Below are positions 43,403-60,989 of a stretch of DNA of 63,934 nt, one piece after another (position 1 is the stretch's first letter; each line of letters opens with the position of its first letter). The notes under the pieces are model-generated. The model was not told where the DNA came from, did not search any database, and was given only the letters and a program-made list of their open reading frames with translations. The stretch is taken from positions 1 through 63,934 of the forward strand of contig JAGQRE010000006.1 of the NCBI GenBank assembly GCA_020425695.1. The letters are read 5' to 3'. This DNA is from Planctomycetota bacterium (lineage in GTDB: Bacteria > Planctomycetota > UBA8742 > UBA2392). The translations under genes and the position numbers were made by a program.

Positions 43403-43404
43403 CC

Positions 43405-46755: not shown

Positions 46756-49700
46756 TTGAGCCAGTCCGCCACTAGATGTTCAATTGCGCCACCTGTGTCG
46801 ACAGGTGCAGTATGTTGTTTGAAATGTAGGGATCGCTTCTTGGGTAACGCAGGAGACAACCTCAGCAAGAGACTGCAGCAGCTCTCCGAGCGCCTGGTGA
46901 ACATTACGAGGCGGAACAAGAGCATCCGCTTGCTCCGCAAGGCCAAGCGACAGTGCATAGACCTTTTCGAGATCGACACACTGTCACCCGGCACCGCAGA
47001 AGAGGCCGTGAAGCAGGTACTGCGCGGCAAAGACTCCAACGTGTTGTCATGGAAGGACTCGCCGGTTGACCCGCGAGACGAGCGTTACGAACTCTTGATT
47101 GACGAACGCGACGAACTTGAGGAGGTCGAAACTCCTGAGTTCAAGCGTGTACGGCTATTCAAGAAGCTAGACGCCAACCTGACGCAGCTAAGTCGTAATG
47201 CAAGGCAGATCGAGGAGGAGACCGGAGCTGTTGACCTCTACCTCGGCTACCCTTGGATCATCGGAAACTGCGACGACACCGAAGGCACGTTCCTACAAGC
47301 TCCGGTGATGCTGTTTCCAGTCCGGCTTGTTGCCCAGAGATCGCCGCGTCTGGAGTGGGTGTTGGAGGCACGGTCGGACGCAGAGCCAATCTTTAACGAG
47401 GCGTTGGCCCTAGCCCTTGAGCAGTTTCACGAAACCAAGTTCAGCGAGGAACTGGTTAATGAAGTGGAAGAAGCTGCGGCAAGCGAAGAGGCTAGCCGAG
47501 ATCCTGCGTGGCTCATCGACTGGCTTCACGCCAAACTCACCGAGGTTGGGTTGCGCATGTCCGACTCCACCACGGTGCTCAGCTCGCTTCCGGAGTACAA
47601 GGCAGAGCAGGTTCCCAGGGCAACCGGAGCATTCGCGCTGCGAGCGCACGCTGTGGTTGGGTACTTCCCGCAAGCAGGCTCCTCACTCAGGCGCGACTAC
47701 GAGCTGTTGATTGAGAAGTCTGACCGAGGCGGACTGGAGGGCGTACTCGGGCGTTTGCTCGATTCCTCCGTAGAAGGACCCGAGTCAGACCACGACGGCC
47801 AAGTAACGAGCATGGACGAAGTGCAGGAAGCCGACACCTGCTGGATTATGAGCAGTGACGCTTCGCAGGAGTCTGCCATGCTGCGGTCGCGGACGGAGGA
47901 CTGTCTGGTTGTCCACGGCCCACCGGGCACTGGAAAATCACAAGTGATCTGCAACCTAGTGTCCGACGCGCTTTCCCGTGGCGAACGTGTCGTCATTTGC
48001 TGCCAGAAGCGCGCCGCGCTCGATGTTGTGTTCCAGCGTCTCTCGGCCGCCGGCCTAAGTGATCACGTCGCCGTGGTTCATGATCACGCCAACGACCGTG
48101 CACCGCTGTACCAACGGATTGCGACCACGCTCGAAGAGCAACAGGAAGAGCATGCCCACCAGTTGGAAACGGAAGGTGCTCAGCTAGCACAGTCGATCGA
48201 CAAGGCGACTTCGGTACTGAGCGAGATTGCGCGAGAACTTCACAAAGAGAGGCGCTGCGGACACACAGCACGCGAGCTTTACGCCCAAGCTGCCGCAATT
48301 GCTGATGACCAAGACCAGGACATCCTGCGTGCGGCAGGGCAGTTCGACCGCAACAGTCTGCGTGAGTTCCTTGATCGGGTCGAGTTGCTTGCCGATCTCA
48401 ACTCTCGGCTCAGCGACCGAGCCTCTGCGTGGTCCGGACGAAAAAGCTTCGGACAACTGACCTTCGCGGACCGTGGTCGGATCGACGAGGCCTTGGTTAG
48501 TGCTCTTGAGTCAGCAAAGGCTCTGATACGAGCGGAAAGCGCAATAACAGACGCGCGGCCTGCAGCCTCCAAGGCCGCCGGATCACTCGAAGCCTTGAAA
48601 GCGCTTTCGGCAATCAACCCATCGCACGTTGATTCTGTGGTAGCGGGACTGACGCGCGAACTGATGGACGCCTCCGCCATGGGCACGGCCAAGGCCGCGC
48701 TAGAAGCAACCAGTCGACTCTTGCCTCAGCTCAAAGCACTACCTTCTAAGCCCGGTCCCGAATTCGCCGGCGGTCCGCCCGAGTTAGCCGTCTCGCTAGA
48801 GACATGGTTGGGAAAACGGACGGGTCTGTTCCGTGTGTTCAGCGGGACTTATCGGACAGCAAAGAAGAAGGCTGCCGAATACGTGGCTAGGGAGGGTCTA
48901 ACCCTCAGTGCAGAAGTAGTTGCTGAGCATGCGGCGATGATTCGCTCACAACAGCAATGGAATCGTCTGTCCAAGGCAACTGAAGGCAGCTTGCTCCAAC
49001 CCTTGATCGTAGGCGTGTCCACTGCCGACCAAGTCGAGTCGACGGTCGGTCAACTCCGTTCAGCGGTCGAGCTCTCAACGCTAGTCAAGGGACTGCTGCA
49101 GCAGGCAGAGATCGTCAGGGAGGAGTTGCTGAATGATGGAGACTCCTTGCAGGCGATTTCTTTTCGGTCAGCGAAGCTCGCCGCATTGGGAGAGAGTTTC
49201 CGCCTCGTAAAAGGCGCAACCGAATCCCTGACGGAGTTCCTTCGGGACGAAGCCGTTGCACGGCTCGTGGCCAACGCGGACCAGGATGCTTCCGTGGTCT
49301 ATGGTCTCTTCGAGCGTTTGAGAGCAGGACTTGGCGACTTCGACACCTTACAGAGCATCGATGACGTACTGGACAAGTTGAGGCAAGTGGAAGCCGCGGT
49401 CTACCGCCACGTTCGCAAGAAGCATGGGGCTGCCGACTGGCGACGGACCATCGAAGGGGCGGTCAAGTTGGGCTGGCTTGCAGAGGTGGAAAAAGAAGCC
49501 AGTGGTCTTCGTCGCGTATCGTCGGGGGAGATTGGCAACCTACGAATTCACTTCAAGGAACAACTCGACAGGCGGCGCGAGCTCAATAAGAAACGACTCG
49601 CACTGCGCCTGCACCGGCGTGGGTCTGAGGTTCGTTTTGAGCCAGGACGAGACGTCGACAAACGCCACAGTGCTGAGAAGCCTTGGCGCGACCTGAAGCA

Positions 49701-51156
49701 CCAAGTGAACAAGCGGCGCCGACTGTGGCCACTGCGGAAGCTCGTCCACGATCTCAGTTGGCCCTTGCTAGAGGTCGTGCCTTGCTGGCTAGTTTCTCCG
49801 GAGACGCTGTCAGCCGCGTTTCCGCTGCAACCCGGACTGTTCGATCTGGCCATATTCGACGAAGCCTCACAGCTCGCCGTGCAGTACGGACTTCCCGCAT
49901 TCTATCGCGCCAAGCGAATCGTGATTGCCGGCGATGAGCAGCAGCTTAGGCCCTTTGACTTATTCGGTGCGTTGGGCGTGCAGACTGACCTCGAAGGCGT
50001 TGATATGGATGAAGACGCCTCTGCCGTGGAAGCTGAGAGCATGCTTACGCTCGCGAAGACACGCTTTCCTGAAGTAGTGCTGAATTGCCACTACCGATCA
50101 AAGTACGAGGAGCTGATCGAGTTTTCCAATCAGGGGTTCTATCAAGGCCGGTTGATGACCGTTCCGCCTGCCGATGGGATCGACACCGCGCCAATCTCAT
50201 GGAAGAAAGTCGAAGGTCGTTGGGAGAACAGAAGAAACGCGCCCGAGGCAGCAGCGGTGCTCGAACTGCTGTTTGAGCAGATGCAGCAATACGGGACGGA
50301 AAAGAGCTTTGGGATCATCACGTTCAACAACACGCAGCAGGAAGAGATCAAGGACCAGATCGACCGGCGTAAGGCTGCTGATCCTGAGTTCGCAGCACTC
50401 ATTGCGCTTGAAGAGAACCCCGAGTCCGGGAAGCTTGATGATGCCATCTTCGTCAAGAACATCGAAAACGTTCAGGGGGATGAGCGGGACGTCATCATTT
50501 TCTCGATCGGCTACGCACCGGATGCAACTGGTCGGGTCTACAATCGGTTCGGGACTCTGGGCCAGGAGGGTGGAGACAACCGATTGAACGTGGCCATTTC
50601 ACGTGCCAAAGAACGAATCTTTGTCGTCTCTTCTATTGAGCCCGAAGACTTGAACGTATCCGGGTCCACTCATCGAGGACCGCAGTTGCTTCGCCGCTAC
50701 CTTGAATACGCAAGAGCGGTAAGTAGCCAGGCTGTCGATACGCGCGATGCGGTATTGAGGCACGTAAACCCGGCACTCGATGTCCGGGTCGAAAAGACGG
50801 GGCAGTTCGATAGCCCTCTTGAAGAGCAGGTGTACGACGAACTGACTCGCCGCAACCTAGTCGTAAAGCCTCAGGTCGGGGTGTCTGGGTACCGAATCGA
50901 TCTAGGCGTGCTAGACCCTTCCAACCCTTCACGCTACCTGCTCGGGATCGAGTGCGACGGGGCGACTTATCACAGCGCCCGAAGCGTTCGTGAGCGCGAC
51001 GCCTACCGTCAGCGGTTTCTCGAGAGCCGCGGCTGGATCATCCACCGGATATGGAGCCGCAACTGGTGGCGAAATCGATCGGCCGAAATGGACAGCCTCA
51101 TGGAAGCGATCGCTAAGGCAAAGAATGCGGCGCCGGCAGATAAGACAGCGGACTAA
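46756..51156 (+). CDS. Hhe-like giant protein: DUF4011-like N-region + Upf1/DNA2-like SF1 helicase + Vsr/DUF559-like endonuclease C-domain
   Basis: TRRNKSIRLL and LYLGYPWI...APVMLFPVRL match DUF4011 patterns. VHGPPGTGKSQ, IFDEASQL, CHYRS, VQGDERDVIIFS and RLNVAISRAKE are SF1 blocks. The C-terminal GYRIDLGV...GIECDGATYHS...RDAYRQRFLESRGWIIHRIWS is Vsr-like. The start is uncertain (TTG 46756, GTG 46795). Confidence 0.7.
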   Translation: MSQSATRCSIAPPVSTGAVCCLKCRDRFLGNAGDNLSKRLQQLSERLVNITRRNKSIRLLRKAKRQCIDLFEIDTLSPGTAEEAVKQVLRGKDSNVLSWKDSPVDPRDERYELLIDERDELEEVETPEFKRVRLFKKLDANLTQLSRNARQIEEETGAVDLYLGYPWIIGNCDDTEGTFLQAPVMLFPVRLVAQRSPRLEWVLEARSDAEPIFNEALALALEQFHETKFSEELVNEVEEAAASEEASRDPAWLIDWLHAKLTEVGLRMSDSTTVLSSLPEYKAEQVPRATGAFALRAHAVVGYFPQAGSSLRRDYELLIEKSDRGGLEGVLGRLLDSSVEGPESDHDGQVTSMDEVQEADTCWIMSSDASQESAMLRSRTEDCLVVHGPPGTGKSQVICNLVSDALSRGERVVICCQKRAALDVVFQRLSAAGLSDHVAVVHDHANDRAPLYQRIATTLEEQQEEHAHQLETEGAQLAQSIDKATSVLSEIARELHKERRCGHTARELYAQAAAIADDQDQDILRAAGQFDRNSLREFLDRVELLADLNSRLSDRASAWSGRKSFGQLTFADRGRIDEALVSALESAKALIRAESAITDARPAASKAAGSLEALKALSAINPSHVDSVVAGLTRELMDASAMGTAKAALEATSRLLPQLKALPSKPGPEFAGGPPELAVSLETWLGKRTGLFRVFSGTYRTAKKKAAEYVAREGLTLSAEVVAEHAAMIRSQQQWNRLSKATEGSLLQPLIVGVSTADQVESTVGQLRSAVELSTLVKGLLQQAEIVREELLNDGDSLQAISFRSAKLAALGESFRLVKGATESLTEFLRDEAVARLVANADQDASVVYGLFERLRAGLGDFDTLQSIDDVLDKLRQVEAAVYRHVRKKHGAADWRRTIEGAVKLGWLAEVEKEASGLRRVSSGEIGNLRIHFKEQLDRRRELNKKRLALRLHRRGSEVRFEPGRDVDKRHSAEKPWRDLKHQVNKRRRLWPLRKLVHDLSWPLLEVVPCWLVSPETLSAAFPLQPGLFDLAIFDEASQLAVQYGLPAFYRAKRIVIAGDEQQLRPFDLFGALGVQTDLEGVDMDEDASAVEAESMLTLAKTRFPEVVLNCHYRSKYEELIEFSNQGFYQGRLMTVPPADGIDTAPISWKKVEGRWENRRNAPEAAAVLELLFEQMQQYGTEKSFGIITFNNTQQEEIKDQIDRRKAADPEFAALIALEENPESGKLDDAIFVKNIENVQGDERDVIIFSIGYAPDATGRVYNRFGTLGQEGGDNRLNVAISRAKERIFVVSSIEPEDLNVSGSTHRGPQLLRRYLEYARAVSSQAVDTRDAVLRHVNPALDVRVEKTGQFDSPLEEQVYDELTRRNLVVKPQVGVSGYRIDLGVLDPSNPSRYLLGIECDGATYHSARSVRERDAYRQRFLESRGWIIHRIWSRNWWRNRSAEMDSLMEAIAKAKNAAPADKTAD

Positions 51157-51554
51157 CTTGGCTACCGGAAAGAAGCCCACCAACTGCTCCCTCGAGGGAA
51201 ATCGTCCCTTACTGGTGCGGAGACTGCGACTTTGGAAGTCCGCGCCTGGTGAACACCCACTTCCACCGCGCCTAGCTCCACAAGCGCATGGGGCTCGACG
51301 GTCCAAGCAAGCGCGCGATCTGAGGATGGGCGAGCGGCTGCTAAGGGCATAGACAAGCTGTCTCGTCAAAGCCCAGGTCCCAAAGCCGCCACACACCAAA
51401 ACCGCCGAGCCGGAGTAGGGTGACGAATCATGGCCATACAGGGCTTTCTCTCGAAGCTGGCTCGTTTCTGACATACACCAACATTGATCAACGTTTCAGC
51501 GAGGATGTCGCACAAGCTTGTATGGTTGACTTGTCGACAAGAGGAGCACACGCC

Positions 51555-52979
51555 ATGGATAAGGCCGAGCAAACGGACGTCTTCGTGTCCTTTACGGATG
51601 CCGATGACAAATTTGCCCAGAAGATTGGTGCGCAACTTGAAGCCGAGACCATTGATGGTTCCCCCGACGGACGGCGTCTGCAGGTCTTCCTCTACAAATG
51701 GGATATCGACGGGTCCGAGAACATTGTGCACCGACTCAACCAGGCGCTTAGGCAGGCTCGCCATGTTCTGCTGGTGGTGTCGCCGGAGTACATTGATCGA
51801 GCATGGCCTACTGCCGAATGGGCGCAGCAGATCATGGTTGACCCACTAAACCTGTCGAAGCGACTTATCGTTTGCCTAAGAAGGGATGTGACGCAGGATG
51901 GCGATCGGGGCTACGAAGCGCCCCCACTCCTAGCACCCTTGAAGCGATTCGATTTCCGACGCGATAGGGACTTTTCAAGGGAGTTCAGAAAAGTTCTGCG
52001 TATCGTGCGCGGTCAACCCCCTGCGCGTGGCCGTTCAAGAAAGCCGCTAGGGATGATCGGTGCGTCACCACAGACACTGGTACCCAGTGCGCCAGAGTCG
52101 TCATTTGGACCAGACGTAGTCGACGATCTGTTGCTCGGGAACCTGCTCCCTGTGGAGCGACATGCGGGGATCATCTGGAGTGCACCAACTAGCCTCCGGC
52201 CATGGCAGTTGGCAAAGGAATGTCCAGATGCAGCCCCATTCTATGTCAACTCCAAGCGTGTGTGGACTTTCTCGGATCTCACCGAATCAAGCAATTCGCT
52301 AAGACCGCGGGTTGAGATCGCCGGAATTCAGAGCCATACCGTGAGGGAGTTTCGCAACCATGCAGATCAATGGCGTCTCACGATGGCGCTCTTGAATCGT
52401 TGCTTTCTTGAACACTTGCCTGACTTCGTTCGACGCGACCGGAAGGGACGGTTCTTCTTCGTACCCAATGAGGACATGACAGATCGAATGGTCAATCTCG
52501 GAAGCGGGCCCGAGATCGGAGTTGCATCCAAGAAGGACGGTCGCGACGGAGGAATGGATTTCTGGGTTCATCGTGCGGCATGGATTAGCTTCATGGACAT
52601 TGGCGAAAGTCTCTTCCTGCGCATTGAGCCCTGTTACGTCTTCACCACTGATGGGTTGCATAGCATGGGAGGCCGGTCCGTCGGTCAACTCGCAATTCAA
52701 TGGACGGGCAAAGAGCGGAACGCCGCCGTCGTTCGGCAAGTGATGTTCTGGAGCAGGTTCCTTCGCAAGGGAAAGCGTAACATCGTTCTTGAGAGTGGTG
52801 GTGATCCGATTGTTGTGAGGCCAGTGCCAGCGACCGGCGAGGCCGCTTTTGGTATTGAGGGTGACCATATCGGTGTTCGCTCACTGGTTTCACACGTTGT
52901 TGACGACCTGAATCTTGCGGCGAGATCGGCCGACAGCTACTACGCCGACGAGTCGGAAGAAGGTGCGAGTAATGGCTAG
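51555..52979 (+). CDS. TIR-APAZ protein (short-pAgo partner, SPARTA-type)
   Basis: GAGGAG lies 8 nt before ATG 51555. TIR blocks are DVFVSFTDADDKFA and VLLVVSPEYIDRAWPTAEW. The ~330-aa C-region is called APAZ from size and context only. Confidence 0.7.
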   Translation: MDKAEQTDVFVSFTDADDKFAQKIGAQLEAETIDGSPDGRRLQVFLYKWDIDGSENIVHRLNQALRQARHVLLVVSPEYIDRAWPTAEWAQQIMVDPLNLSKRLIVCLRRDVTQDGDRGYEAPPLLAPLKRFDFRRDRDFSREFRKVLRIVRGQPPARGRSRKPLGMIGASPQTLVPSAPESSFGPDVVDDLLLGNLLPVERHAGIIWSAPTSLRPWQLAKECPDAAPFYVNSKRVWTFSDLTESSNSLRPRVEIAGIQSHTVREFRNHADQWRLTMALLNRCFLEHLPDFVRRDRKGRFFFVPNEDMTDRMVNLGSGPEIGVASKKDGRDGGMDFWVHRAAWISFMDIGESLFLRIEPCYVFTTDGLHSMGGRSVGQLAIQWTGKERNAAVVRQVMFWSRFLRKGKRNIVLESGGDPIVVRPVPATGEAAFGIEGDHIGVRSLVSHVVDDLNLAARSADSYYADESEEGASNG

Positions 52980-54591
52980 AGATCAGAAGAACCAACGGAA
53001 ACGGAAACGCAAGCGACGGAGCCGCGTCCGAGGTGGTGAACTCGTGGACGCGTTGCTCAGAAAATACGGCCCATCATTCAGAGTTTGGCATGTCGAAGAG
53101 CCAAAACTCCTCTTCGGATCTGGCCAAGCAATTGAAGATCCTAAGGCAGGATTAACTCTATATGGACCGGTATCAGCCGGCAGCGTGCACCGGTCTGCAA
53201 TTCGCCTGGGACTAATTGGCACAGGCGAAACAGTACAGGCTACAAAGGGCTTTCTTCAGCAACTTCACAGTCGCATATCGGCGGGAAGGAATTCAAAGGG
53301 TGAGCCCCTCGATAGGGTCCTTCATCCGGACTTCCCCGGGCTCGGGCATGACTCACCACTCCAGTGCACGGCCGAACTGATACCCAACGGATGCGAGACT
53401 CTCACGGATCGTGAAGTTCGCGCCGCCTTGGACGACAAGAGCCGTCAAACTCGTGTTGAGCGAATGGTGAGCTTGGTGGTAGGCCGCGTTCTTGCCCTAG
53501 CATCAAAAGACCCAGCTCCCGACGTCATCATTGTGGTGCTACCCCAGGACGTTAGAGACGGCTGTCGTGCGCCAAGAAGCAGGGGCCCAAAGAAGGTGTT
53601 CGTGCCGCCCCATATCAAGTTTCAGCGTGAAACTGAAGCTGAAGCTGAGAAGGTCGGCCAAATGATGCTGTTTGATTCTGGGGCGGTAGTGGAAGAAGAA
53701 GATGAAGAGCACGAGCCACTCTACTTGGACTTCCACAATGCGCTCAAAGCTCGCGCGATGCGAGGGCGCGTGCCCATCCAACTCATTTGGGAGCCGACAC
53801 TGAAGGGCACTAGAAGCAAGGAAGATCGCGCGACCATTGCTTGGAACATCGTCACGGCTCTATTGTACAAGGCGGGCAACATTCCTTGGCAGTTGAGGGA
53901 GCCGGACCCCAGAACCTGCTTTCTCGGCATCAGCTTCTTCAAGGATGGTCGCACCAACGACTCGCGCGCGAGTTTGGCGCAGGCATTCGCACAGACCGGA
54001 GAAGGCTTTGTCCTCAAGGGTGAGTCTGCTACTTGGGACCCGCTGGAGAGACAGGCGCATTTGAGTGAGTCGGGGGCTGAACGTACCTTGAAACGCGTTC
54101 TCGACGACTACGAAGATCGGTTTCACGATCGTCCGACGCGAGTAGTTGTTCACAAGACGTCCAGATATTCCGTTGGCGAACTTGCCGGATTCCGGAGGGC
54201 ACTAGATGGTGTTCACACGCACGACTTCCTGGCACTCGGTGATCGCGGGATCAGGTTCATGCGCCTTGGGCACGAACCGCCTCTGCGCGGGACTGTCATT
54301 GAATTGGGAAAGCGCAACTATCTTGTATACACCGTTGGCTACGTGCCGAGCGTCCGTGCATATCCTGGTATGCGAGTGCCCATCCCGTTAGAGATCATCG
54401 AACACCATGGAGATTCCGACAGCGAGCGAGTGTGCCGCGAGGTCTTAGCACTGACAAAGCTCAATTGGAACAACTGTAGATTGGCAACTCGAGATCCCAT
54501 CACAATCGCATTCTCCAAGAAGGTCGCGAGCATTGTGCGCGAGTTTGGAAGCAGCGATCCGCCGGAGCACAAATATAGGTTTTTCATGTAG
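52972..54591 (+). CDS. Short prokaryotic Argonaute (MID-PIWI only)
   Basis: At 539 aa it is too short for N/PAZ domains. PIWI-type blocks are LLYKAGNIPWQL and RVVVHKTSRY. ATG 52972 overlaps the upstream gene by 8 nt. The N-terminus is polybasic (MARDQKNQRKRKRKRRSRVRGG). Confidence 0.75.
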   Translation: MARDQKNQRKRKRKRRSRVRGGELVDALLRKYGPSFRVWHVEEPKLLFGSGQAIEDPKAGLTLYGPVSAGSVHRSAIRLGLIGTGETVQATKGFLQQLHSRISAGRNSKGEPLDRVLHPDFPGLGHDSPLQCTAELIPNGCETLTDREVRAALDDKSRQTRVERMVSLVVGRVLALASKDPAPDVIIVVLPQDVRDGCRAPRSRGPKKVFVPPHIKFQRETEAEAEKVGQMMLFDSGAVVEEEDEEHEPLYLDFHNALKARAMRGRVPIQLIWEPTLKGTRSKEDRATIAWNIVTALLYKAGNIPWQLREPDPRTCFLGISFFKDGRTNDSRASLAQAFAQTGEGFVLKGESATWDPLERQAHLSESGAERTLKRVLDDYEDRFHDRPTRVVVHKTSRYSVGELAGFRRALDGVHTHDFLALGDRGIRFMRLGHEPPLRGTVIELGKRNYLVYTVGYVPSVRAYPGMRVPIPLEIIEHHGDSDSERVCREVLALTKLNWNNCRLATRDPITIAFSKKVASIVREFGSSDPPEHKYRFFM

Positions 54592-54749: not shown

Positions 54750-55088
54750 GTGCACCTTCTCGGAAGCGCATACTGCTCGAGCACTGACGTCCTCAAGAAC
54801 ATCATCTCGTCGCCCTATCCGGTTGTGGGGCGCGAGACAACCATCACAGGTGGCGATGGAAAGACGTCTGTTTGCTACAATCTCGACCATATGGGTTGGA
54901 GCCCAAGAATGCCTAGAAATAGGCTCGACGGAGTTTTCGGCAGGGACAGCGAGACAACCATCGCCGCTAGCGACGGAAAGACGTCGGTTTGCTACAATCT
55001 TGGCATAGTGGATAAATACTCAGAAATGCCTAGAAACAGGCCCGACGGAACTCTTGGTGAAGACACGGCGGAGAACTCCACAACCTAG
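54750..55088 (+). CDS. Possible small repeat protein (2 x 39-aa units)
   Basis: The repeat period is exactly 39 codons in this frame. Differences inside the conserved blocks are mostly synonymous (gat/gac, tct/tcg, ctc/ctt, aat/aac). GTG start with no clear RBS. Confidence 0.3.
   Translation: MHLLGSAYCSSTDVLKNIISSPYPVVGRETTITGGDGKTSVCYNLDHMGWSPRMPRNRLDGVFGRDSETTIAASDGKTSVCYNLGIVDKYSEMPRNRPDGTLGEDTAENSTT
54832..55065. repeat. 117-bp tandem repeat, 2 copies (+ partial third start)
   Basis: The copies begin at 54832 and 54949. Conserved blocks are GCGAGACAACCATC, GGAAAGACGTC(T/G)GTTTGCTACAATCT and AATGCCTAGAAA(T/C)AGGC(T/C)CGACGGA, separated by variable about 25-nt stretches. Confidence 0.85.
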
Positions 55089-55142: not shown

Positions 55143-55610
55143 TCAAGAAGGGGAGTTTTTCTGTTCCAGATCGCGGATGATGTTGCAGCCGTCAACGCCT
55201 CTGTCCCCCGGCGGGCAATCACGGATTAGTTGCTTCAACTGTTTGCGTAGCGTCTTCAGATTTGCGAGCTTCTTCTCGACCTCAAGAAGCTTGTCCTCCG
55301 TGCGTTCACGTACCTCCGCGCACCTCGCGTCGCTACTCGTCTTGAGGTCTACCAACTCGCGAATCTCGCGAAGTGTGAAGCCGCATGCCTTCGCGCCCAA
55401 AATGAACCTAATGATTGTAAGCTCTGCGTCGGCGTACATTCGGTATCCGCCGGAGGATCGATCTGGCTCACGAATAATCCCCTCTCGCTCGTAAAACCTT
55501 AGGGTCTGGATAGTTACGCCGTATTTCCTGGCGACTTGGCCAACCGTTAATCCCCTGGCGGTGCCAGTAGTTTGCCTCGGTGATCGGGATTTGGTTCTCG
55601 AAGTTTTCAT
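55143..55610 (-). CDS. MerR-family metal-responsive transcription regulator
   Basis: LTVGQVARKYGVTIQTLRFYEREGII forms the HTH, and the C-terminal CPPGDRGVDGC is a Cys pair. The start is placed at ATG 55610. Confidence 0.85.
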   Translation of the reverse strand: MKTSRTKSRSPRQTTGTARGLTVGQVARKYGVTIQTLRFYEREGIIREPDRSSGGYRMYADAELTIIRFILGAKACGFTLREIRELVDLKTSSDARCAEVRERTEDKLLEVEKKLANLKTLRKQLKQLIRDCPPGDRGVDGCNIIRDLEQKNSPS

Positions 55611-55618
55611 GAGTTCCC

Positions 55619-55651
55619 CCTTGAGCCTATAGCAAGGAATAGGGTTAGGAT
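55619..55651 (+). promoter_or_regulatory. MerR-type promoter/operator for the efflux operon
   Basis: TTGAGC (55621-26), a 19-nt spacer, then TAGGAT (55646-51). The dyad CCTTG-N9-CAAGG (55619-37) spans the -35/spacer. Confidence 0.55.
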
Positions 55652-55720
55652 AAGGGAGACTGCTGTTGCTCGCAATCAGAAACATCTCAGGTCGCGCTGC
55701 ACCTATCGATGGAGATAGTC

Positions 55721-57307
55721 ATGAACGAAGCCGCTAAGGGTGGTAATCCCCCTCAACCGATGCCGGAAAATGGCACCCAAGCCTCCAAGTTCGCCGCAGT
55801 TTGGGGTGCATTGCCGACGCTGGCGATTCTGGTTGCGTTAGGCGGTGTTGCGTTCTGGGGACATCACACCGGCTGGACTCTTCCCAGCTTCGATGAACTG
55901 ACGGCTGACGGCAGTGAGACTACGGCCGACTGGTGTGAGGCCCACAAAGTGCCGGAGTCCCTCTGCGTGGAATGCAACCTCGATGAATATCCGCGACCTG
56001 CCTACTACGGCTGGGACGAAGACTACGGCGTATTCAACAACCCTGAGCGTCACCCGGACCTGGCTCAAGTGAACGGCACGCCTCAACTACCAAAGTACGA
56101 TACCCTTGCAGCACTGCGCGTAATGGATCGGCAGGAAAACGATCCCAAGTGCCCGCTTCACCTTCCTCGCTTGCAGTTCGCGTCATTGGAAGCTGCCGAG
56201 AAGATGGGTGTAGAGTTCGAAGTCGTTTCTGAGCGGCCGATGGAGGATCACGTCGTTGCAAATGCCGAGGTCGTCTACGAGCCAACGGCCGTCGCGAGAG
56301 TTTCTTCGCCAGTTGGTGGCAGAGTATGGCAGGTACGGACCCAACTCGGGAACGCCGTGGCGGCTGGCGACGTGTTGGCCTTGATCGACTCACCAGGCAT
56401 CGCCGACGCGAAGGGTAACTACATTGAAGCTGTCATCGCGATGCAGACTAAAGAGGAAGAGTACCAAACGCTTCTCCAGGTTAGCGAGACAGTCAGCGTC
56501 GGGCGTATGACCTTGGTCGAAGCAAAGAGTGCTCGGGACGGCGCGAAGAGCCGCCTGACCCGTACGATCCAATTGCTGGCCAACTTGGGGCTCAACGTTC
56601 CCACGTCGGTATCCGAGTTGGATCCGGACACCCTGAACGAGGAAATGCGCTTTCTCGGCATTCCCGAGTCGCTCAGAGTGGACATCGCAGAGTCGACCAG
56701 CACATCCAGCCTTTTCCCTCTCACTGCACCACAAGCCGGAATCGTTACGGAACTGAATTTGGCAACGGGCGAAGTGGTCGATACGCGTGACGTACTCGGT
56801 GTTGTCGCGAATCGTGAGAAGATGATGGTCTCAATGAGCGTAACAGCCGAGCATTCGAAGTATGTCCGCGAAGGTCTCACAGTCCGGTTCGTATCCGACG
56901 TAGGCGAGATCACGGTTGACGGGGTCGTGAAATGGATCAGCAATTCCGTTGACGACATTTCGCGCCAGTTGGAAGTCCGTGCAACCATCACGGCCATACC
57001 GGCGAATCTGCGCGCCAACACATTCGGCACGGCATATATCATTCTCAGGCAGGAACCGAACGCGGTCGTGGTGCCACGCAGCGCGGTGCAGTGGGAGGGA
57101 GACTGCAATGTCGTGTTTGTGCGCGACAAGAACTTCCGCAAGCCTGACTACCCCAAAGTCATCCACGTCCGAAAGGTCCGACCCGGTGCCAGCGACGGTG
57201 AATTCGTAGAGCTATTGGCTGGCGTTCTGCCAGGCGAAGTAGTGGTGAGCGCAGGGGCAGGAATCCTCAGGGGGCAAATGCTCGCCAACAAGCTCGGCGC
57301 GGGCTGA
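55721..57307 (+). CDS. RND efflux periplasmic adaptor (CzcB/CusB-like, HlyD family)
   Basis: GGAG lies 6 nt before ATG 55721; an alternative ATG is at 55709. The protein has a TM anchor, WCEAHKVPESLCVECN, and lipoyl/beta-barrel adaptor blocks. Confidence 0.8.
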   Translation: MNEAAKGGNPPQPMPENGTQASKFAAVWGALPTLAILVALGGVAFWGHHTGWTLPSFDELTADGSETTADWCEAHKVPESLCVECNLDEYPRPAYYGWDEDYGVFNNPERHPDLAQVNGTPQLPKYDTLAALRVMDRQENDPKCPLHLPRLQFASLEAAEKMGVEFEVVSERPMEDHVVANAEVVYEPTAVARVSSPVGGRVWQVRTQLGNAVAAGDVLALIDSPGIADAKGNYIEAVIAMQTKEEEYQTLLQVSETVSVGRMTLVEAKSARDGAKSRLTRTIQLLANLGLNVPTSVSELDPDTLNEEMRFLGIPESLRVDIAESTSTSSLFPLTAPQAGIVTELNLATGEVVDTRDVLGVVANREKMMVSMSVTAEHSKYVREGLTVRFVSDVGEITVDGVVKWISNSVDDISRQLEVRATITAIPANLRANTFGTAYIILRQEPNAVVVPRSAVQWEGDCNVVFVRDKNFRKPDYPKVIHVRKVRPGASDGEFVELLAGVLPGEVVVSAGAGILRGQMLANKLGAG

Positions 57308-57375
57308 GTGGATTGCGTAGGTGAGTAGCCCGGTCGGGCCTCTGAAATAGAAACTCCAACGATGGACGGTCAGCC

Positions 57376-60300
57376 GTGCTGAACTGGTTAATCAACTTTT
57401 CCTTACGGCATAGGTACGCGGTCATTATCGGCTCGCTGGTCCTCGGCGTTGGTGGCTTCATTTCGATGAACCAGTTGGAACTGGACGCCTTTCCGGATAC
57501 CACGCCGGTAATGGTTCAAATCAACACGGTCGCACCGGCGCTAGGCCCTGAAGAAGTCGAAAGCCAGCTGACCTTCCCAATCGAGCAGTCGCTGAGCGGT
57601 CTGCCAAAGCTTGAACTCGTACGTTCGATATCAAAGTTCGGGCTATCTCAAGTCGTGGTGATTTTCGAAGACGGCACGGATATCTATTTCGCTCGTCAGC
57701 TTGTAACCGAGCGCTTGAATACCGTTGAGTTGCCGGAAGGCCTCCAGAAACCGGAGCTCGGTCCAGTATCAACAGGGCTGGGCGAGGTGTTTCACTACAT
57801 CGTTACCAGCGAGGGTTCAGATCTTACGGACCTACGCACCACTCACGATTGGGTAGTAAAGCCGACACTTCGTACCGTACCGGGTACCGCTGAGGTCAAT
57901 AGCTGGGGTGGATATGAAAAGCAATTTCAAGTGCGCATCTACCCCGAAAAGTTGGTCAAGCACGAACTGACATTCGAAGAAGTAGTAGAAGCGCTTGAGA
58001 AGAACAACCGGAACGTAGGCGGTGGCAGCATAAGCGACGAGTCCGAGACACTGCTGGTTCACGGACACGGACGCCTGGAATCGCTTGACGCAATTCGCAA
58101 CATCATCCTCTCATCTGAAGACGGTGTACCGGTCAAACTTCTTGACGTCGCTGACGTCGAGATCGGTCACGAAATTCGTCGCGGGGCGGTGACGGCCGAT
58201 GGTAAGGGGGAAGTCGTCCTCGGAATCGGCTTCATGCTGATGGGCGAAAACAGCCACGAAGTCACCTGGAACATGAAGGACAAGTTGGACGAAGTGAGCG
58301 GCTCCCTGCCGCCCGGCACTCGCGTTGAGCCCGTCTACGACCGCACGGAACTGGTCGACTACGTCATCGACACGGTACGGGGGAACTTGCTTGAAGGCGG
58401 GCTATTCGTCGTAGTCGTGCTGTTCCTTTTTCTGGGTAACTTTCGAGGTGCGTTCATCGTCGCTTTGGCGATTCCCCTTTCCATGCTCGCAGCATTTAGC
58501 GGAATGCTCCAGGCTGGCATAGCGGCAAGCTTGCTCAGTCTTGGAGCAATTGATTTTGGCATGGTCGTGGACTCGTCAGTTGTAATGGTCGAGAACTGCG
58601 TACGGCGGCTGGCTGGCGACAAGTCGGGCGCTAGCAAACTGGACATCATCCGCGACGCCGCAATTGAGGTGAGGCGACCGACTCTGTTCGGTGAGCTGAT
58701 TATCATGATCGTGTACCTTCCAATTCTCACGTTGGAGGGCATCGAGGGCAAGTTGTTCCGGCCAATGGCGCTTACCGTGATATTCGCATTAGCCGGTTCG
58801 ATGCTGCTCTCCATGACGCTGATGCCAGCCCTCGCCAGCATAATCCTTCCAAGGAGACCAAGGGAAAAGGAGCCCTTGTTGATGCGCCTGGTTCTTCGGC
58901 TCTACACTCCCGTACTGGATTTCGCGTTGCGTCGAAAAGGCTTTGTCATGGCCGTTGGCGCTCTCATCCTGTTCGTCGCATTTGGCGTGGTTGCCCCGAA
59001 TCTAGGGTCGGAGTTCGTCCCGCGACTGTCAGAGGGTGCGATTGTGATCAACACGGTGCGCCTGACCGGTACTTCCATCGAAGACTCGGTCGAAAGCAAC
59101 ACGCAGATTGAGCGGGCGATCCTTCGAGAGTTCCCAGACGAAGTCGAACATGTGTGGAGTCGAATCGGGACGGCCGAAGTCGCAACTGACCCCATGGGCA
59201 TCGAGCTCACGGACATATTCGTGACGTTCAAGCCACGGCCTCAGTGGAAACGTGCGTCCACCCAAGCCGAACTGACCGAGAAGATTCAACGCAGCTTGCG
59301 TGATGTGCCTGGACTAAAGATGGCGTACACGCAGCCGATTGAAATGCGGATCAATGAGATGGTCTCCGGCGTCCGAACAGACTTCGCTGTGAAGATTTTT
59401 GGTGACGACTTTGACGAACTCGTGGAAAAAGCCCAGGAGGTCGAGTCGATCCTTTTGTCAACGGAAGGCAGTGCCGACGTAAGCGTTGAGCAGATTACCG
59501 GACAGCCTGTGTTGGAGGTGCGAGTTCGTCAGGATCAACTAGCGCGCTACGGCGTGCCAGCGCAGGACGTGATGAACTTGGTTGAGTCTTTGGGCTCGTT
59601 CGAAGTAGGAGAAGTGTTTCAGGGTCAGCTTCGATTCCCGCTTGTCATCCGGCTTCCGGAGAAGTACCGAGAAGGTGCCCAATCGGTCCGTGAGCTGTTG
59701 CTCACGAGCGCCGACGGAGAGAAGGTCCCGTTGGGGCGACTCGCGGATGTAACCGTTATCGAAGGGCCGTCCACCATTACTCGCGAGTGGGGCCAGCGTC
59801 GTATCACCGTCACCTGCAACGTCCGAGGGCGGGACCTCGGCAGTTTTGTCGAAGAGGCTCAGGCAAAAGTTGATGAGGGCGTTGCACTTCCATCGGCTCG
59901 CTACCGTATTGACTACGGAGGGCAGTACGAAAACCTGATCCGTGCGCAGAGTCGACTGTTCTTGGTCGTACCACTGGCTCTCGCACTGATATTCATCCTG
60001 CTGTACTTCACCTACCACAACATCATCGATTCCGTCAGGGTATTCACGGCGTTGCCGTTCGCGTGGGTAGGTGGAATCTTCGCGCTGTGGATTCGAGGAA
60101 TGCCGTTCTCGATCTCTGCGGCGATTGGGTTCATCGCGCTGTCAGGCGTCGCGGTGCTCGATGACATGATCCTTGTGTCTTACATCAATCAACTCCGAGC
60201 AAAGGGCATGCCGGTCGAAGAGGCCGTTACAGTCGCTGCAAAAACACGACTCCGACCCGTCTTGATGACGACACTTGTGGCGGCGTTGGGGTTCGTACCC

Positions 60301-60471: not shown

Positions 60472-60523
60472 TTTGACCTGCCGTATAAGCGTTACTTCAT
60501 TTTTCAGGAACAAGGGGAGACTA

Positions 60524-60910: not shown

Positions 60911-60989
60911 GCGGGCTGTATCGGCTACTAAAGCTGCTTGAGCTGTCGGTAGTGGAGTTTCTTGTGTCAGCGGCGAGCAGGAGCGTTAG

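What the first reader, a model, noticed from the sequence alone, without database searches (positions are those of the whole stretch)
51555..54591. Short-pAgo / TIR-APAZ (SPARTA-type) NAD-depleting defence pair carried on the island
Two same-strand genes overlap by 8 nt. The first is 474 aa and has an N-terminal TIR domain (DVFVSF...; VLLVVSPEYIDRAWPTAEW, which includes a Glu where TIR NADases place the catalytic residue). It is followed by a ~330-aa region of the size expected for APAZ. The second is a 539-aa Argonaute with PIWI-type blocks (LLYKAGNIPWQL, RVVVHKTSRY) and no room for N/PAZ domains. This is the architecture of short-pAgo systems, which use small RNA guides to detect invading DNA and then oligomerise and hydrolyse NAD+. 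Three things are unusual here: a polybasic 22-aa N-terminal extension on the pAgo, carriage as cargo of a tRNA-integrated element in a very GC-rich host, and a structured 117-bp repeat directly downstream.
Basis: partly seen in the sequence, partly recalled or inferred. Interest (0 to 1): 0.8.

Follow-up and report, generated by a model that had tools for sequence, protein, structure and literature searches.

The report
TIR-Argonaute defence gene pair, non-SPARTA lineage
These two overlapping genes form a real short-Argonaute and TIR-APAZ anti-plasmid/anti-phage system that probably kills the infected cell by destroying NAD+, but it belongs to an uncharacterised lineage nearer the nuclease-carrying systems (SPARDA/SPARHA) than to the studied SPARTA systems.

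Summary
Gene 51555-52979 (+) encodes a 474-aa TIR-APAZ protein. Gene 52972-54591 (+) encodes a 539-aa MID-PIWI Argonaute. They overlap by 8 nt and each has a Shine-Dalgarno-like site.

The TIR keeps an invariant Glu (E88) in the catalytic column. The Argonaute has lost all four slicer residues but keeps an intact 5'-phosphate pocket (H255/K259/Q270/K300).

"SPARTA-type" holds for the architecture but not for the lineage.
- The pAgo clade is monophyletic (199/200 bootstraps) and is sister to the SPARTA clade S2A in only 2/200.
- An S2B pAgo profile scores 455 bits against 290 for an S2A profile.
- The APAZ matches SPARHA and SPARDA APAZ and never SPARTA TIR-APAZ.
- The TIR carries the motifs of TIR-STAND proteins, not of SPARTA TIRs.

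The pair therefore probably belongs to the "TIR subgroup of S2B", which a 2023 preprint mentions and which no paper in the searched library characterises. That identification is an inference.

The polybasic pAgo N-terminal tail is real and clade-specific. The 117-bp repeat is real but is not structured and is not linked to the system. The host is only about 60% GC, and only the left end of the island is visible.

It is a new member of a known kind and is moderately interesting.

The parts
51541..51546 (+). Shine-Dalgarno-like GAGGAG, 8 nt upstream of the TIR-APAZ ATG
   Evidence: Read directly from the sequence.
51555..52979 (+). TIR-APAZ gene (474 aa plus stop)
   Evidence: ORF. TIR_2 at E=3e-18. 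APAZ/PNTD models at E=3e-26. The predicted structure (AF2, mean pLDDT 75) has SPARHA APAZ 9om4_A as best Foldseek hit and aligns over its full length to SPARTA TIR-APAZ chains.
51576..52010 (+). TIR domain (residues 8-152). The putative catalytic Glu E88 is encoded at 51816-51818, within W84-x-x-x-E88.
   Evidence: Pfam TIR_2 over residues 9-147. E88 and W89 are invariant in 32 homologues. E88 aligns with the conserved Glu column of S2A SPARTA TIRs.
52011..52121 (+). TIR-APAZ linker (residues 153-189), predicted disordered, with the conserved motif PPxRG (P155, R158, G159)
   Evidence: R158 and G159 are invariant and P155 is nearly invariant. pLDDT is about 33-37.
52122..52889 (+). APAZ domain (residues 190-445)
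   Evidence: PADLOC Aga_REase/SIR2-PNTD1-PNTD2. PDB sequence hits to SPARHA and SPARDA APAZ only. Foldseek 9om4_A: TM 0.77 (normalised to the target), 25% identity. pLDDT above 90 over residues 200-310.
52890..52976 (+). [quoted passage not shown]
   Evidence: 6-16 D/E in the last 30 residues in all 31 loci examined. An acidic tail is described as autoinhibitory in SPARTA and as conserved in S2A and S2B (10.1101/2023.09.23.559129).
52960..52965 (+). Shine-Dalgarno-like AAGGTG, 6 nt upstream of the pAgo ATG, inside the TIR-APAZ coding end (translational coupling)
   Evidence: Read from the sequence. In 29 of 31 homologous loci an in-frame ATG lies within -25 to +4 nt of the last base of the upstream stop codon.
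52972..54591 (+). Short pAgo gene (539 aa plus stop)
   Evidence: PADLOC pAgo_I at E=1e-145. PDB short pAgos at E=5e-73 to 6e-52. AF2 mean pLDDT 88 and pTM 0.86. Foldseek SPARDA pAgo: TM 0.90 (normalised to the target), 30% identity.
52972..53088 (+). Clade-specific N-terminal extension of the pAgo (residues 1-39): a polybasic tail (residues 2-22, 15 K/R) followed by a conserved helix (LxxLLxxxxPSFxxWH)
   Evidence: Family median is 35.5 aa before the conserved EP motif, against 0-13 aa in 15 S1/S2A/S2B reference pAgos (five of them PDB chains cut at the aligned region, whose own alignments start 2-12 residues from the chain N-terminus). Median K+R is 7.5. Predicted as helix 5-31 with low to moderate confidence.
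53089..53871 (+). MID domain (about residues 40-300, boundary approximate). It holds the HK-type 5'-phosphate pocket (H255, K259, Q270, K300) and a ~60-aa insertion (residues 192-254, window 53545-53733).
   Evidence: The pocket residues align with TtAgo R418/K422/Q433/K457. In the family H is present in 106/116, K in 116/116, Q in 115/116 and K in 116/116. The insertion length was compared with references.
53872..54588 (+). Catalytically dead PIWI domain (about residues 301-539), ending in the conserved ...KYRFFM C-terminus
   Evidence: TtAgo D478/E512/D546/D660 align with S321/A362/T396/gap. No acidic residue occurs at these columns in any of 116 family members.

Best explanation
The pair is a two-gene short prokaryotic Argonaute abortive-infection system. 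Its effector is a TIR NADase fused to an APAZ domain. Its scaffold (pAgo plus APAZ) belongs to the S2B radiation of short pAgo systems, which holds SPARDA, SPARHA and the SIR2/Mrr-like partners, not to the SPARTA clade S2A.

Proposed mechanism:
1. The genes are co-translated (8-nt overlap). The proteins form a heterodimer in which APAZ supplies the N/L1/L2-like lobe that the MID-PIWI pAgo lacks. This is inferred from homology and co-evolution.
2. [quoted passage not shown] This is inferred from SPARTA; the tail itself is shown.
3. The pAgo binds a 5'-phosphorylated small guide, most likely RNA from the transcriptome, in its H-K-Q-K MID pocket. The residues are shown; the guide chemistry is inferred.
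4. Pairing with complementary invader ssDNA cannot lead to slicing, because loss of DEDX is shown. Instead it drives pAgo-pAgo oligomerisation, which brings TIR domains together. E88 in composite TIR-TIR sites then hydrolyses NAD(P)+. The cell stops growing or dies and the plasmid or phage is lost. This step is inferred.

The TIR module was probably captured independently of the SPARTA TIR, from the pool of TIR domains used by STAND/NLR-like defence proteins.
For: Domains:
- TIR_2 at E=3e-18, APAZ models at E=3e-26 and pAgo_I at E=1e-145.
- Solved-structure sequence hits.
- AF2 models with Foldseek hits to SPARHA/SPARDA/SPARTA chains.

Catalytic and binding residues:
- E88 is invariant and aligns with the S2A catalytic Glu column.
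- The DEDX positions are S321/A362/T396/gap, and the pocket H255/K259/Q270/K300 is conserved.

A self-contained two-gene unit:
- All 38 loci with a full-length TIR-APAZ (37 GTDB species loci plus the metagenome locus L001) carry pAgo sequence immediately downstream on the same strand; 34 have a full-length pAgo and four (L014, L015, L031, L044) have it interrupted, cut short or only partly matched.
- No third gene is conserved across the 32 loci analysed.
- The TIR-APAZ and pAgo distance matrices correlate at Mantel r=0.925, with 0 of 2000 permutations reaching that value.

Lineage:
- Family monophyly 199/200, S2A monophyly 200/200, family sister to S2A 2/200.
- The S2B pAgo profile scores 455 bits and the S2A profile 290 bits.
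- The dead-site residues (S, A/P, T) match the S2B references, not S2A (V, F/Y, K).
- The family TIR-APAZ profile scores S2B DUF4365-APAZ at 95 bits, S2B SIR2-APAZ at 54, SMEK-APAZ at 39-45 and S2A TIR-APAZ at -2 to 21, with no TIR-to-TIR match.
- The TIR motifs (DxFLxHNxADKxW, VFFDEWDI, SPE..W..EW) are shared at 31-41% identity with the TIR domains of other defence-type proteins, including TIR-NB-ARC/STAND-TPR proteins.

Context:
- The genes sit next to Hachiman (HamA/HamB) and a PDC-S37/Hhe-like helicase-nuclease.
- The closest homologue also lies in a defence island with type I R-M, GmrSD and an AAA_15/DUF3696 protein.

Literature:
- A TIR subgroup in S2B is mentioned in 10.1101/2023.06.08.544223.
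- The SPARTA mechanism is described in PMC9097488 and 10.1101/2023.09.23.559129.
Against: - There is no experimental evidence for this clade. NADase activity, guide and target type, and oligomeric state are all inferred from relatives at 22-30% (pAgo) and 13-25% (TIR-APAZ) identity.
- Confidence in the TIR model is only moderate (pLDDT 55-91, and below 50 at residues 85-87, next to E88).
- Deep branching within S2 is unresolved in my NJ trees (supports 7-32%). S2B was not recovered as monophyletic, so 'S2B' here means 'outside S2A and most similar to S2B members'.
- The pAgo shares a ~60-aa MID insertion and an H-type pocket with S2A pAgos, so some affinity to S2A cannot be excluded.
- TIR domains can make signalling nucleotides instead of simply depleting NAD+.
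Confidence: 0.8

Rival explanations
1. It is an ordinary SPARTA (clade S2A) orthologue, and everything known for MapSPARTA, CrtSPARTA and BabSPARTA, including the butterfly tetramer, transfers directly.
For: - Same gene order and domain order, and an acidic C-tail.
- The model aligns over its full length to SPARTA TIR-APAZ chains in Foldseek (E about 1e-15).
- It shares the HK pocket and a ~60-aa MID insertion with S2A pAgos.
Against: - The family is sister to S2A in only 2 of 200 bootstraps, and S2A is monophyletic without it in 200/200.
- The S2A pAgo profile scores 290 bits against 455 for S2B.
- SPARTA TIR-APAZ is not found by sequence even at E<=10.
- The family profile gives S2A TIR-APAZ only -2 to 21 bits and no TIR match.
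- Identity to SPARTA TIR-APAZ in structural alignment is 13-15%, against 25% for SPARHA APAZ.
Confidence: 0.04
2. The TIR is a signal generator, as in Thoeris. On target recognition it makes a cyclic ADPR-type nucleotide that activates a separate effector elsewhere, rather than killing by NAD+ depletion.
For: - Bacterial TIRs of the TIR_2 type include signal-producing enzymes. This is general knowledge and was not tested here.
- There are weak NCBIfam similarities to the Thoeris III protein ThcB4 (E=0.012) and to the retron TIR (E=9.5e-7).
Against: - No third gene is conserved next to the pair in 32 loci.
- The nearest TIR relatives are effector TIRs fused directly to STAND/NB-ARC sensors.
- The characterised pAgo-linked TIR (SPARTA) yields non-cyclic ADPR plus nicotinamide (PMC9097488).
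Confidence: 0.07
3. The pair is a decaying or inactive remnant carried passively on the island.
For: - In the protein collection the window's pAgo appears only as a 387-aa product (P0033), which could suggest a damaged 5' part.
- Some homologous loci do have an interrupted or cut-short pAgo (L014, L015, L031, L044).
Against: - Both ORFs are intact and align along their full length with homologues: 96-100% query coverage, 61% and 67% identity to the nearest pair.
- All invariant family residues checked are present.
- The start codon and its coupling to the upstream stop are conserved.
- The 387-aa product is best explained as a gene-calling error.
Confidence: 0.03

Closest known systems
SPARTA (short pAgo / TIR-APAZ, clade S2A; MapSPARTA, CrtSPARTA, BabSPARTA; PDB 8fex, 8isy, 8qlo and others)
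   Same: - Two-gene operon with TIR-APAZ first and the MID-PIWI pAgo second.
- TIR with a conserved Glu in the catalytic column.
- Acidic C-terminal tail on the APAZ protein.
- Slicer residues lost and H-K-Q-K 5'-phosphate pocket kept.
- A ~60-aa insertion in the MID domain.
- Same overall folds.
- Expected output: NAD(P)+ depletion on guide-directed detection of invader DNA.
   Different: - The pAgo lies outside the S2A clade.
- The APAZ and TIR are not detectably similar to SPARTA's at sequence level.
- The TIR motifs differ: DxFLxHNxADKxW / FFDEWDI here, FISHAxPEDNxF / VWAD..GG in S2A.
- The pAgo has a ~35-40-aa N-terminal extension with a polybasic tail that S2A pAgos lack.
- The dead active-site residues are S/A/T here and V/F-Y/K in S2A.
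- Hosts are mainly Planctomycetota and Verrucomicrobiota.
SPARHA (short pAgo / HNH-APAZ, S2B; AcaSPARHA, PDB 9om4)
   Same: - Best sequence match for both proteins: pAgo 249 bits, APAZ E=4e-16.
- Best structural match for the APAZ: TM 0.77 (normalised to the target), 25% identity.
- Most frequent sister group in bootstraps (44 of 200).
- Identical dead-site pattern S/A/T.
   Different: - The effector is an HNH nuclease that degrades DNA from filaments; here it is a TIR.
- The SPARHA pAgo has an R-type pocket, no MID insertion and no N-terminal extension.
SPARDA (short pAgo / DREN(DUF4365)-APAZ, S2B; Nba, Xau and Eae; PDB 9jsb, 9qbl, 9qbp)
   Same: - The pAgo is the best structural match: TM 0.90 (normalised to the target), 28-30% identity.
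- The family APAZ profile scores the two plasmid-borne DUF4365-APAZ proteins (Hymenobacter L072, Haematobacter L083) highest, at 95-96 bits.
   Different: - The effector is a PD-(D/E)XK nuclease with collateral DNase/RNase activity from filaments, not a TIR.
- It has no MID insertion and no N-terminal extension.
The 'subgroup of TIR effectors' within APAZ clade S2B noted by Prostova et al. (bioRxiv 10.1101/2023.06.08.544223)
   Same: A TIR effector on an S2B-type APAZ is exactly what is found here. The authors also propose exchange of TIR and SIR2 effectors between clades.
   Different: - The paper only mentions the subgroup in a phylogeny. No member is characterised, and no paper in the searched library reports experiments on it.
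- I could not check that their subgroup is the same clade as this one.
TIR-NB-ARC/STAND(-TPR) NLR-like defence proteins
   Same: The TIR domains share 31-41% identity and the same motif set (L036, L041, L043).
   Different: The sensor is a STAND NTPase with TPR repeats on the same polypeptide, not an Argonaute-APAZ module.

Membership tests
Short pAgo systems (effector-APAZ plus MID-PIWI pAgo) | The Argonaute consists of MID and PIWI only, with no N or PAZ domains | tested here: met
   The 539-aa protein covers the whole 455-position PADLOC pAgo_I model. It aligns end to end with 471-507-aa solved short pAgos. The AF2 model matches short pAgo chains at TM 0.79-0.90, normalised to the target.
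Short pAgo systems (effector-APAZ plus MID-PIWI pAgo) | The catalytic DEDX tetrad of PIWI is lost | tested here: met
   TtAgo D478/E512/D546/D660 align with S321/A362/T396/gap. No acidic residue occurs in any of 116 family members.
Short pAgo systems (effector-APAZ plus MID-PIWI pAgo) | An APAZ-domain protein with an N-terminal effector domain is encoded in the same operon | tested here: met
   The genes are adjacent with an 8-nt overlap. APAZ is shown. The pairing is conserved in all 38 loci with a full-length TIR-APAZ, four of them with an interrupted or only partly matched pAgo. Mantel r=0.925.
Short pAgo systems (effector-APAZ plus MID-PIWI pAgo) | [quoted passage not shown] | tested here: met
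   H255/K259/Q270/K300 are conserved in the family (H 106/116, K 116/116, Q 115/116, K 116/116). The C-terminus ...KYRFFM matches the family consensus.
Short pAgo systems (effector-APAZ plus MID-PIWI pAgo) | A stable pAgo/APAZ heterodimer whose effector is activated by guide-directed target binding | not testable with these tools
   This needs co-purification and activity assays. The tools predict single chains only.
SPARTA (clade S2A sensu Koopal et al. 2022) | The partner protein has the TIR-APAZ architecture | tested here: met
   TIR_2 over residues 9-147 plus APAZ over residues 187-438. The model aligns over its full length to SPARTA TIR-APAZ chains.
SPARTA (clade S2A sensu Koopal et al. 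2022) | A TIR catalytic glutamate (E77 in MapTIR-APAZ) | tested here: met
   E88 is invariant. It aligns with the conserved Glu column of four S2A TIR-APAZ proteins.
SPARTA (clade S2A sensu Koopal et al. 2022) | The pAgo belongs to phylogenetic clade S2A | tested here: not met
   S2A (MapAgo plus 5 plasmid-borne relatives) is monophyletic in 200/200 bootstraps without the family. The family is sister to S2A in 2/200. Corrected distances are 1.65-1.81 to S2A and 1.31-1.43 to S2B. Profile scores are 290 (S2A) and 455 bits (S2B).
SPARTA (clade S2A sensu Koopal et al. 2022) | The TIR-APAZ is orthologous to S2A TIR-APAZ | tested here: not met
   No SPARTA TIR-APAZ chain is found by phmmer at E<=10 with the TIR part or the APAZ part, nor at E<=0.01 with the whole protein. 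The family profile gives -2 to 21 bits on five S2A partners, against 39-96 bits on five of six S2B partners (17 on the sixth).
SPARTA (clade S2A sensu Koopal et al. 2022) | An acidic autoinhibitory C-terminal tail on TIR-APAZ | tested here: met
   The last 30 residues hold 7 D/E in the window and 6-16 across the 31 loci examined. Its function is inferred.
SPARTA (clade S2A sensu Koopal et al. 2022) | RNA-guided, ssDNA-triggered tetramerisation and NAD(P)ase activity | not testable with these tools
   This needs biochemistry and cryo-EM.
Clade S2B short pAgo systems | The APAZ domain is of the S2B type | tested here: met
   The only significant PDB sequence hits are SPARHA and SPARDA APAZ. PADLOC's best matches are REase- and SIR2-PNTD models. 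The family profile scores 95-96 bits on DUF4365-APAZ.
Clade S2B short pAgo systems | The pAgo branches within the S2B radiation | tested here: inconclusive
   The pAgo is most similar to S2B members by distance, by profile score and by dead-site residues. However, the deep NJ nodes have 7-32% support and S2B was not recovered as a clade. The family groups with S2B to the exclusion of S2A in 60 of 200 bootstraps.
TIR-domain NADases | A TIR fold with the conserved catalytic Glu (WxxxE-type motif) | tested here: met
   TIR_2 and TIR Pfam hits above their cut-offs. W84-P-T-A-E88 is present, with E88 invariant.
TIR-domain NADases | Measured NAD+ cleavage | not testable with these tools
   This needs an enzymatic assay.

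The most novel reading that the evidence does not exclude
This is an S2B-scaffold TIR system that may not work like SPARTA in its assembly step. Its pAgo and APAZ are nearest to the filament-forming SPARDA and SPARHA systems. Target recognition may therefore drive open-ended pAgo filaments that line up TIR domains into a continuous NADase array, as in TIR-SAVED or TIR-STING filaments, rather than a closed tetramer. The clade-specific polybasic pAgo N-terminal tail would then act either as a partner for the acidic APAZ tail (a second autoinhibitory latch) or as an extra nucleic-acid clamp. If so, the system would be a natural experiment showing that the same Argonaute sensor chassis can drive either nucleases or a NADase through one assembly principle.
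Probability: 0.3. Interest if true: 0.6.

Novelty: new member of a known kind. Interest (0 to 1): 0.4.

Why it matters
All mechanistic knowledge of Argonaute-controlled TIR NADases comes from one clade, S2A SPARTA. This locus and its roughly 60-100 relatives (counted as clusters at 50% identity) pair a TIR with a different scaffold, the S2B-type one otherwise used with nucleases, and apparently acquired that TIR independently. Characterising one member would show three things. First, whether effector swapping leaves the activation geometry unchanged. Second, whether TIR activation can be driven by filaments. Third, what the conserved basic pAgo tail does. The clade could also widen the set of programmable NADase reporters used for nucleic-acid detection. 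For annotating this window, the finding also marks a multi-system defence island that holds Hachiman, a helicase-nuclease and the pAgo pair.

Tried and rejected
1. An alternative pAgo start at GTG 53044 (codon 25, preceded by GAGGTGGTGA) would remove the polybasic tail. I rejected it. 105 of 116 clade members have at least 25 residues before the EP motif, and these are mostly K/R-rich. In 29 of 31 loci an in-frame ATG lies within -25 to +4 nt of the last base of the upstream stop codon.
2. I considered that the polybasic tail might be an artefact of reading the acidic-tail codons in another frame. In the window the basic stretch is encoded entirely downstream of the TIR-APAZ stop. In other loci at most the first 8 codons overlap.
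3. The 117-bp repeat as a structured RNA or as part of the system was rejected. Fold z-scores are -0.1, -1.9, +0.2 and -1.5 and the two copies share no structure. Rfam finds only the tRNA in the window. blastn finds the repeat in none of the 80-odd fetched loci, including the closest homologue L001. No sigma-70-like promoter or terminator enrichment is seen.
4. A search for the right-hand island end as a repeat of the tRNA-Met 3' end found none in the window.
5. Pfam gives no hit for the pAgo and NCBIfam gives only weak ones. This reflects model coverage, since the PADLOC, PDB and fold searches are decisive.
6. Looking up the window's own contig through protein P0033 found nothing on record. 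The host is therefore inferred only from relatives, which are Planctomycetota at 41-42% identity.
7. I looked for a conserved third gene. The apparent extra clusters are antisense shadow ORFs inside the two genes.
8. The deep phylogeny within S2 could not be resolved by NJ with 200 bootstraps.

Full report
**Observation**

ORF 51555-52979 (+) encodes 474 aa from an ATG preceded by GAGGAG at 51541-51546. ORF 52972-54591 (+) encodes 539 aa from an ATG preceded by AAGGTG at 52960-52965. The overlap is 8 nt. The closest homologous pair, from a metagenome contig (L001), has 61% and 67% identity and the same 8-nt overlap.

**What the proteins are**

- Protein 1 matches Pfam TIR_2 (E=3.1e-18, residues 9-147) and TIR.
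- Residues 187-438 of protein 1 match PADLOC's pAgo-associated PNTD1-PNTD2 (APAZ) models. The best hits are the REase- and SIR2-linked versions, at E=2.8e-26 and 4.4e-25.
- Protein 2 has no Pfam hit, but it matches PADLOC pAgo_I over the full model at E=1.2e-145. It also matches solved short pAgos at E=5e-73 to 6e-52.
- AlphaFold2 models were built from family alignments. TIR-APAZ has mean pLDDT 75, with values above 90 through most of APAZ. The pAgo has mean pLDDT 88 and pTM 0.86.
- In Foldseek the TIR-APAZ model hits SPARHA APAZ 9om4_A best (TM 0.77 normalised to the target, 25% identity). It aligns over its full length with SPARTA TIR-APAZ chains at 13-15% identity.
- The pAgo model hits SPARDA, SPARHA and SPARTA pAgos at TM 0.79-0.90, normalised to the target.

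**Functional residues**

In an alignment of 32 TIR-APAZ relatives, E88 and W89 are invariant within the motif W-P-T-x-E-W. E88 falls in the same column as the conserved Glu of S2A SPARTA TIRs. That Glu is E77 in MapTIR-APAZ, whose E77A mutant serves as the catalytic-dead control (10.1101/2023.09.23.559129).

I aligned the pAgo family with TtAgo, fetched from plasmid pTT27.
- The catalytic residues D478, E512, D546 and D660 correspond to S321, A362, T396 and a gap. No acidic residue occurs at these columns in any of 116 family members.
- The 5'-phosphate pocket residues R418, K422, Q433 and K457 correspond to H255, K259, Q270 and K300. Across the family H is present in 106/116, K in 116/116, Q in 115/116 and K in 116/116.

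The protein therefore cannot slice but should still bind a 5'-phosphorylated guide.

**A self-contained two-gene unit**

- A scan of one genome per GTDB species found 37 species loci with a full-length relative of the TIR-APAZ; with the metagenome locus L001 that makes 38.
- All 38 carry pAgo sequence immediately downstream on the same strand. Thirty-four have a full-length pAgo. In the other four (L014, L015, L031, L044) it is interrupted, cut short or only partly matched; L031 ends about 140 bp after its match.
- No other gene is conserved around the pair in the 32 loci analysed. The apparent extra clusters are antisense shadow ORFs.
- The pairwise distances of the two proteins across 31 loci correlate at Mantel r=0.925, and 0 of 2000 permutations reach that value.
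- The TIR-APAZ ends in an acidic tail in every locus, with 6-16 D/E in the last 30 residues. In SPARTA such a tail occupies the nucleic-acid channel and autoinhibits the complex, and it is reported as conserved in S2A and S2B.

**Lineage: architecture like SPARTA, ancestry not**

By sequence, the pAgo is closest to SPARHA (249 bits), then SPARDA (207-221) and then SPARTA (180-186). The APAZ region finds only SPARHA (E=4e-16) and SPARDA (E=7e-7 to 0.02). Neither the APAZ part nor the TIR part finds any SPARTA TIR-APAZ chain, even at E<=10.

I collected reference pairs from plasmids with their annotated partners.
- Five were S2A TIR- or Mrr-TIR-APAZ pairs.
- The S2B pairs carried DUF4365, SMEK, SIR2 or unannotated partners.
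- One was an S1B SIR2 pair, used as outgroup.
- PDB chains were recovered from HMMER alignments.

Results of the comparison:
- In NJ trees the window's clade is monophyletic in 199/200 bootstraps and S2A in 200/200.
- The two are sisters in 2/200. The commonest sister is SPARHA, in 44/200.
- An S2B pAgo profile scores the window at 455 bits and an S2A profile at 290.
- The residues that replaced the catalytic tetrad (S, A/P, T) match the S2B references rather than S2A (V, F/Y, K).
- The family TIR-APAZ profile scores S2B DUF4365-APAZ at 95-96 bits, S2B SIR2-APAZ at 54, SMEK-APAZ at 39-45 and the Haloarcula partner at 17. S2A TIR-APAZ scores only -2 to 21, with no alignment in the TIR region.

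The TIR also has a different origin. Its motifs (DxFLxHNxADKxW, VFFDEWDI, SPE..W..EW) recur at 31-41% identity in TIR domains fused to other C-terminal regions. These include NB-ARC/STAND NTPases with TPR repeats (L036, L041, L043). S2A TIRs carry a different motif set.

The most economical reading is that an S2B-type APAZ/pAgo chassis captured a TIR effector independently. Prostova et al. state that clade S2B 'includes ... a subgroup of TIR effectors' and suggest effector exchange (10.1101/2023.06.08.544223). Koopal et al. and later reviews place TIR in S2A only. Three full-text searches found no paper that characterises an S2B TIR system or mentions Planctomycetes in this context.

Three caveats apply.
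- The deep nodes within S2 are unresolved (supports 7-32%).
- S2B was not recovered as a clade.
- The pAgo shares an H-type pocket and a ~60-aa MID insertion with S2A.

**Clade-specific features**

- The pAgo N-terminal extension is real. Family members have a median of 35.5 residues before the conserved EP motif, against 0-13 in the 15 reference pAgos. Five of those references are PDB chains cut at the aligned region, but their own alignments start only 2-12 residues from the chain N-terminus. Median K+R is 7.5, and the window's tail is extreme at 15 K/R in 39 residues.
- An in-frame ATG lies within -25 to +4 nt of the last base of the upstream stop codon in 29 of 31 loci. This argues that the extension is translated and that the genes are translationally coupled.
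- AF2 predicts a helix over residues 5-31, with low confidence in the basic part.
- Other conserved features are a PPxRG motif in the disordered TIR-APAZ linker and a ~60-aa MID insertion. Among the references only S2A and an S2B SIR2-associated pAgo share that insertion. SPARDA and SPARHA lack it.

**Distribution**

An exhaustive HMMER search of 1.84 billion cluster representatives gave 66 proteins at E<=1e-30 and 287 at E<=1e-10. Full-length TIR+APAZ matches extend down to about 25% identity. GTDB hosts are mainly Planctomycetota and Verrucomicrobiota. There are a few Myxococcota, Gemmatimonadota and Bdellovibrionota and one Thermoplasmata MAG. None of 72,556 plasmids carries a close relative of the pAgo; the best match is 34% identical.

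**Context**

- tRNA-Met lies at 31068-31143.
- A 557-aa large serine recombinase lies at 31100-32773 (-), and a second, shorter recombinase at 40724-41542 (-).
- GC content falls from about 0.60 to 0.52-0.59 after 31 kb.
- Just upstream of the pair are Hachiman HamA and HamB (42521-43402 and 43381-46740). HamB matches its model at 1242 bits.
- Also upstream is a 1466-aa DUF4011 / SF1-helicase / MTES_1575-nuclease protein (46756-51156). It matches PADLOC PDC-S37 (E=7e-210) and Hhe.
- Downstream lie a MerR regulator and a membrane-fusion / RND / outer-membrane efflux set.
- No repeat of the tRNA 3' end is present, so the island's right end is not defined within the window.

**The downstream repeat**

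Region 54832-55049 holds 1.9 copies of a 117-bp unit at 79% identity. It begins 241 nt after the pAgo stop. It folds no better than shuffled sequence on either strand. It has no Rfam match and is absent from every other locus fetched. I treat it as unrelated to the system and as unexplained.

**Mechanism proposed**

1. The two proteins are produced by coupled translation and form a heterodimer.
2. The acidic tail autoinhibits the complex.
3. A 5'-P guide, probably RNA, is loaded into the H-K-Q-K pocket.
4. The guide pairs with invader ssDNA, without cleavage.
5. The pAgo-driven oligomerisation assembles TIR-TIR composite sites.
6. E88-dependent NAD(P)+ hydrolysis causes growth arrest or death of the invaded cell.

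The domains, residues, gene coupling, co-evolution and lineage are shown here. Heterodimer formation, guide and target chemistry, oligomer type and NADase output are inferred from SPARTA, SPARDA and SPARHA.

**Verdict**

This is a well-supported short pAgo/TIR-APAZ defence pair. It is a new member of a known kind and probably belongs to the S2B TIR subgroup, which has been mentioned but not characterised. Interest is moderate. The open point worth an experiment is whether a TIR on an S2B chassis is activated by filaments or by a SPARTA-like tetramer, and what the conserved basic tail contributes.

Noticed in passing
window 42521-46740 (+): A complete Hachiman defence system. HamA is 293 aa (PADLOC HamA E=6.6e-88). 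HamB is a 1119-aa helicase (1242 bits). The two genes overlap by 22 nt.
   Followed up: partly
window 46756-51156 (+): A 1466-aa single-protein candidate defence gene with DUF4011, an SF1 helicase (AAA_11/AAA_12) and a C-terminal MTES_1575 restriction-endonuclease-like domain. Its best PADLOC matches are PDC-S37 (E=7e-210) and Hhe (E=3e-109).
   Followed up: partly
window 31068-32773 and 40724-41542: tRNA-Met is directly abutted, and overlapped at its 3' end, by a 557-aa large serine recombinase on the minus strand. A second, shorter serine recombinase (272 aa, with only half of the Recombinase domain) lies 8 kb further in. No direct repeat of the tRNA 3' end occurs in the window. The five ORFs between them (33059-39060, minus strand) have no Pfam hits, and the four scanned against PADLOC also had none.
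   Followed up: partly
window 54832-55049: A tandem 117-bp repeat (1.9 copies, 79% identity) lies in the 551-bp convergent intergenic region between the pAgo and the MerR gene. It has conserved blocks, including GTTTGCTACAATCT and the small palindrome GCCTAGAAATAGGC. It is not significantly structured, has no Rfam match and is absent from all other loci fetched. Its function is unknown.
   Followed up: yes
window 55143-62378: A MerR-family regulator (minus strand) is divergent from a tripartite efflux set: a HlyD/CusB-type membrane-fusion protein, a 1031-aa RND pump and an outer-membrane factor. This is probably metal or drug efflux cargo next to the defence genes.
   Followed up: partly
window 52972-53430 (pAgo 5' third): The public protein collection holds the window's pAgo only as a 387-aa product starting at residue 153 (P0033). 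All homologues are 520-560 aa and align from about residue 20-40 onwards. This is probably a gene-calling truncation that would hide the MID domain from annotation pipelines.
   Followed up: partly
window 53545-53733 (pAgo residues 192-254); reference loci L074, L078-L082: A ~60-aa insertion in the MID domain is present in this clade, in S2A SPARTA pAgos and in an S2B SIR2-associated pAgo. It is short or absent in the nuclease-associated SPARDA, SPARHA and SMEK pAgos. It may therefore track NADase effectors. The sample is small.
   Followed up: partly
homologous loci L002-L045 (junction of TIR-APAZ and pAgo): In many loci the first 3-9 codons of the pAgo, often Lys/Arg-rich, overlap the last codons of the acidic APAZ tail in another frame. 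GAR-rich acidic codons read out of frame give AAG or AGA basic codons. This is a possible dual-coding origin for part of the basic tail.
   Followed up: partly
L014 (Verrucomicrobia UBA1319), L015, L031, L044: Some relatives have the pAgo interrupted, cut short or only partly matched. In L014 only the 3' part of the pAgo (query residues 292-539) was matched, about 3.4 kb downstream of the TIR-APAZ. This suggests occasional inactivation of the system, though L031 may simply end at the contig edge.
   Followed up: no
L017 and L033: L017 is labelled as a Bifidobacteriaceae MAG. Its pair matches the window's proteins at the same identities as that of the Verrucomicrobia MAG L018 and nearly the same as L016, so the contig is probably mis-binned. 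L033 is a Thermoplasmata archaeon MAG with a diverged copy (28% and 33% identity), which means either cross-domain transfer or mis-binning.
   Followed up: no
window 1929-3206 and 25295-27664: The chromosomal part of the window holds a protein with similarity to the TssM/IcmF C-terminus (E=3e-16, far below the model's cut-off) and a 789-aa Ser/Thr kinase. Pyruvate kinase lies at 4041-5663. None of this bears on the finding.
   Followed up: no
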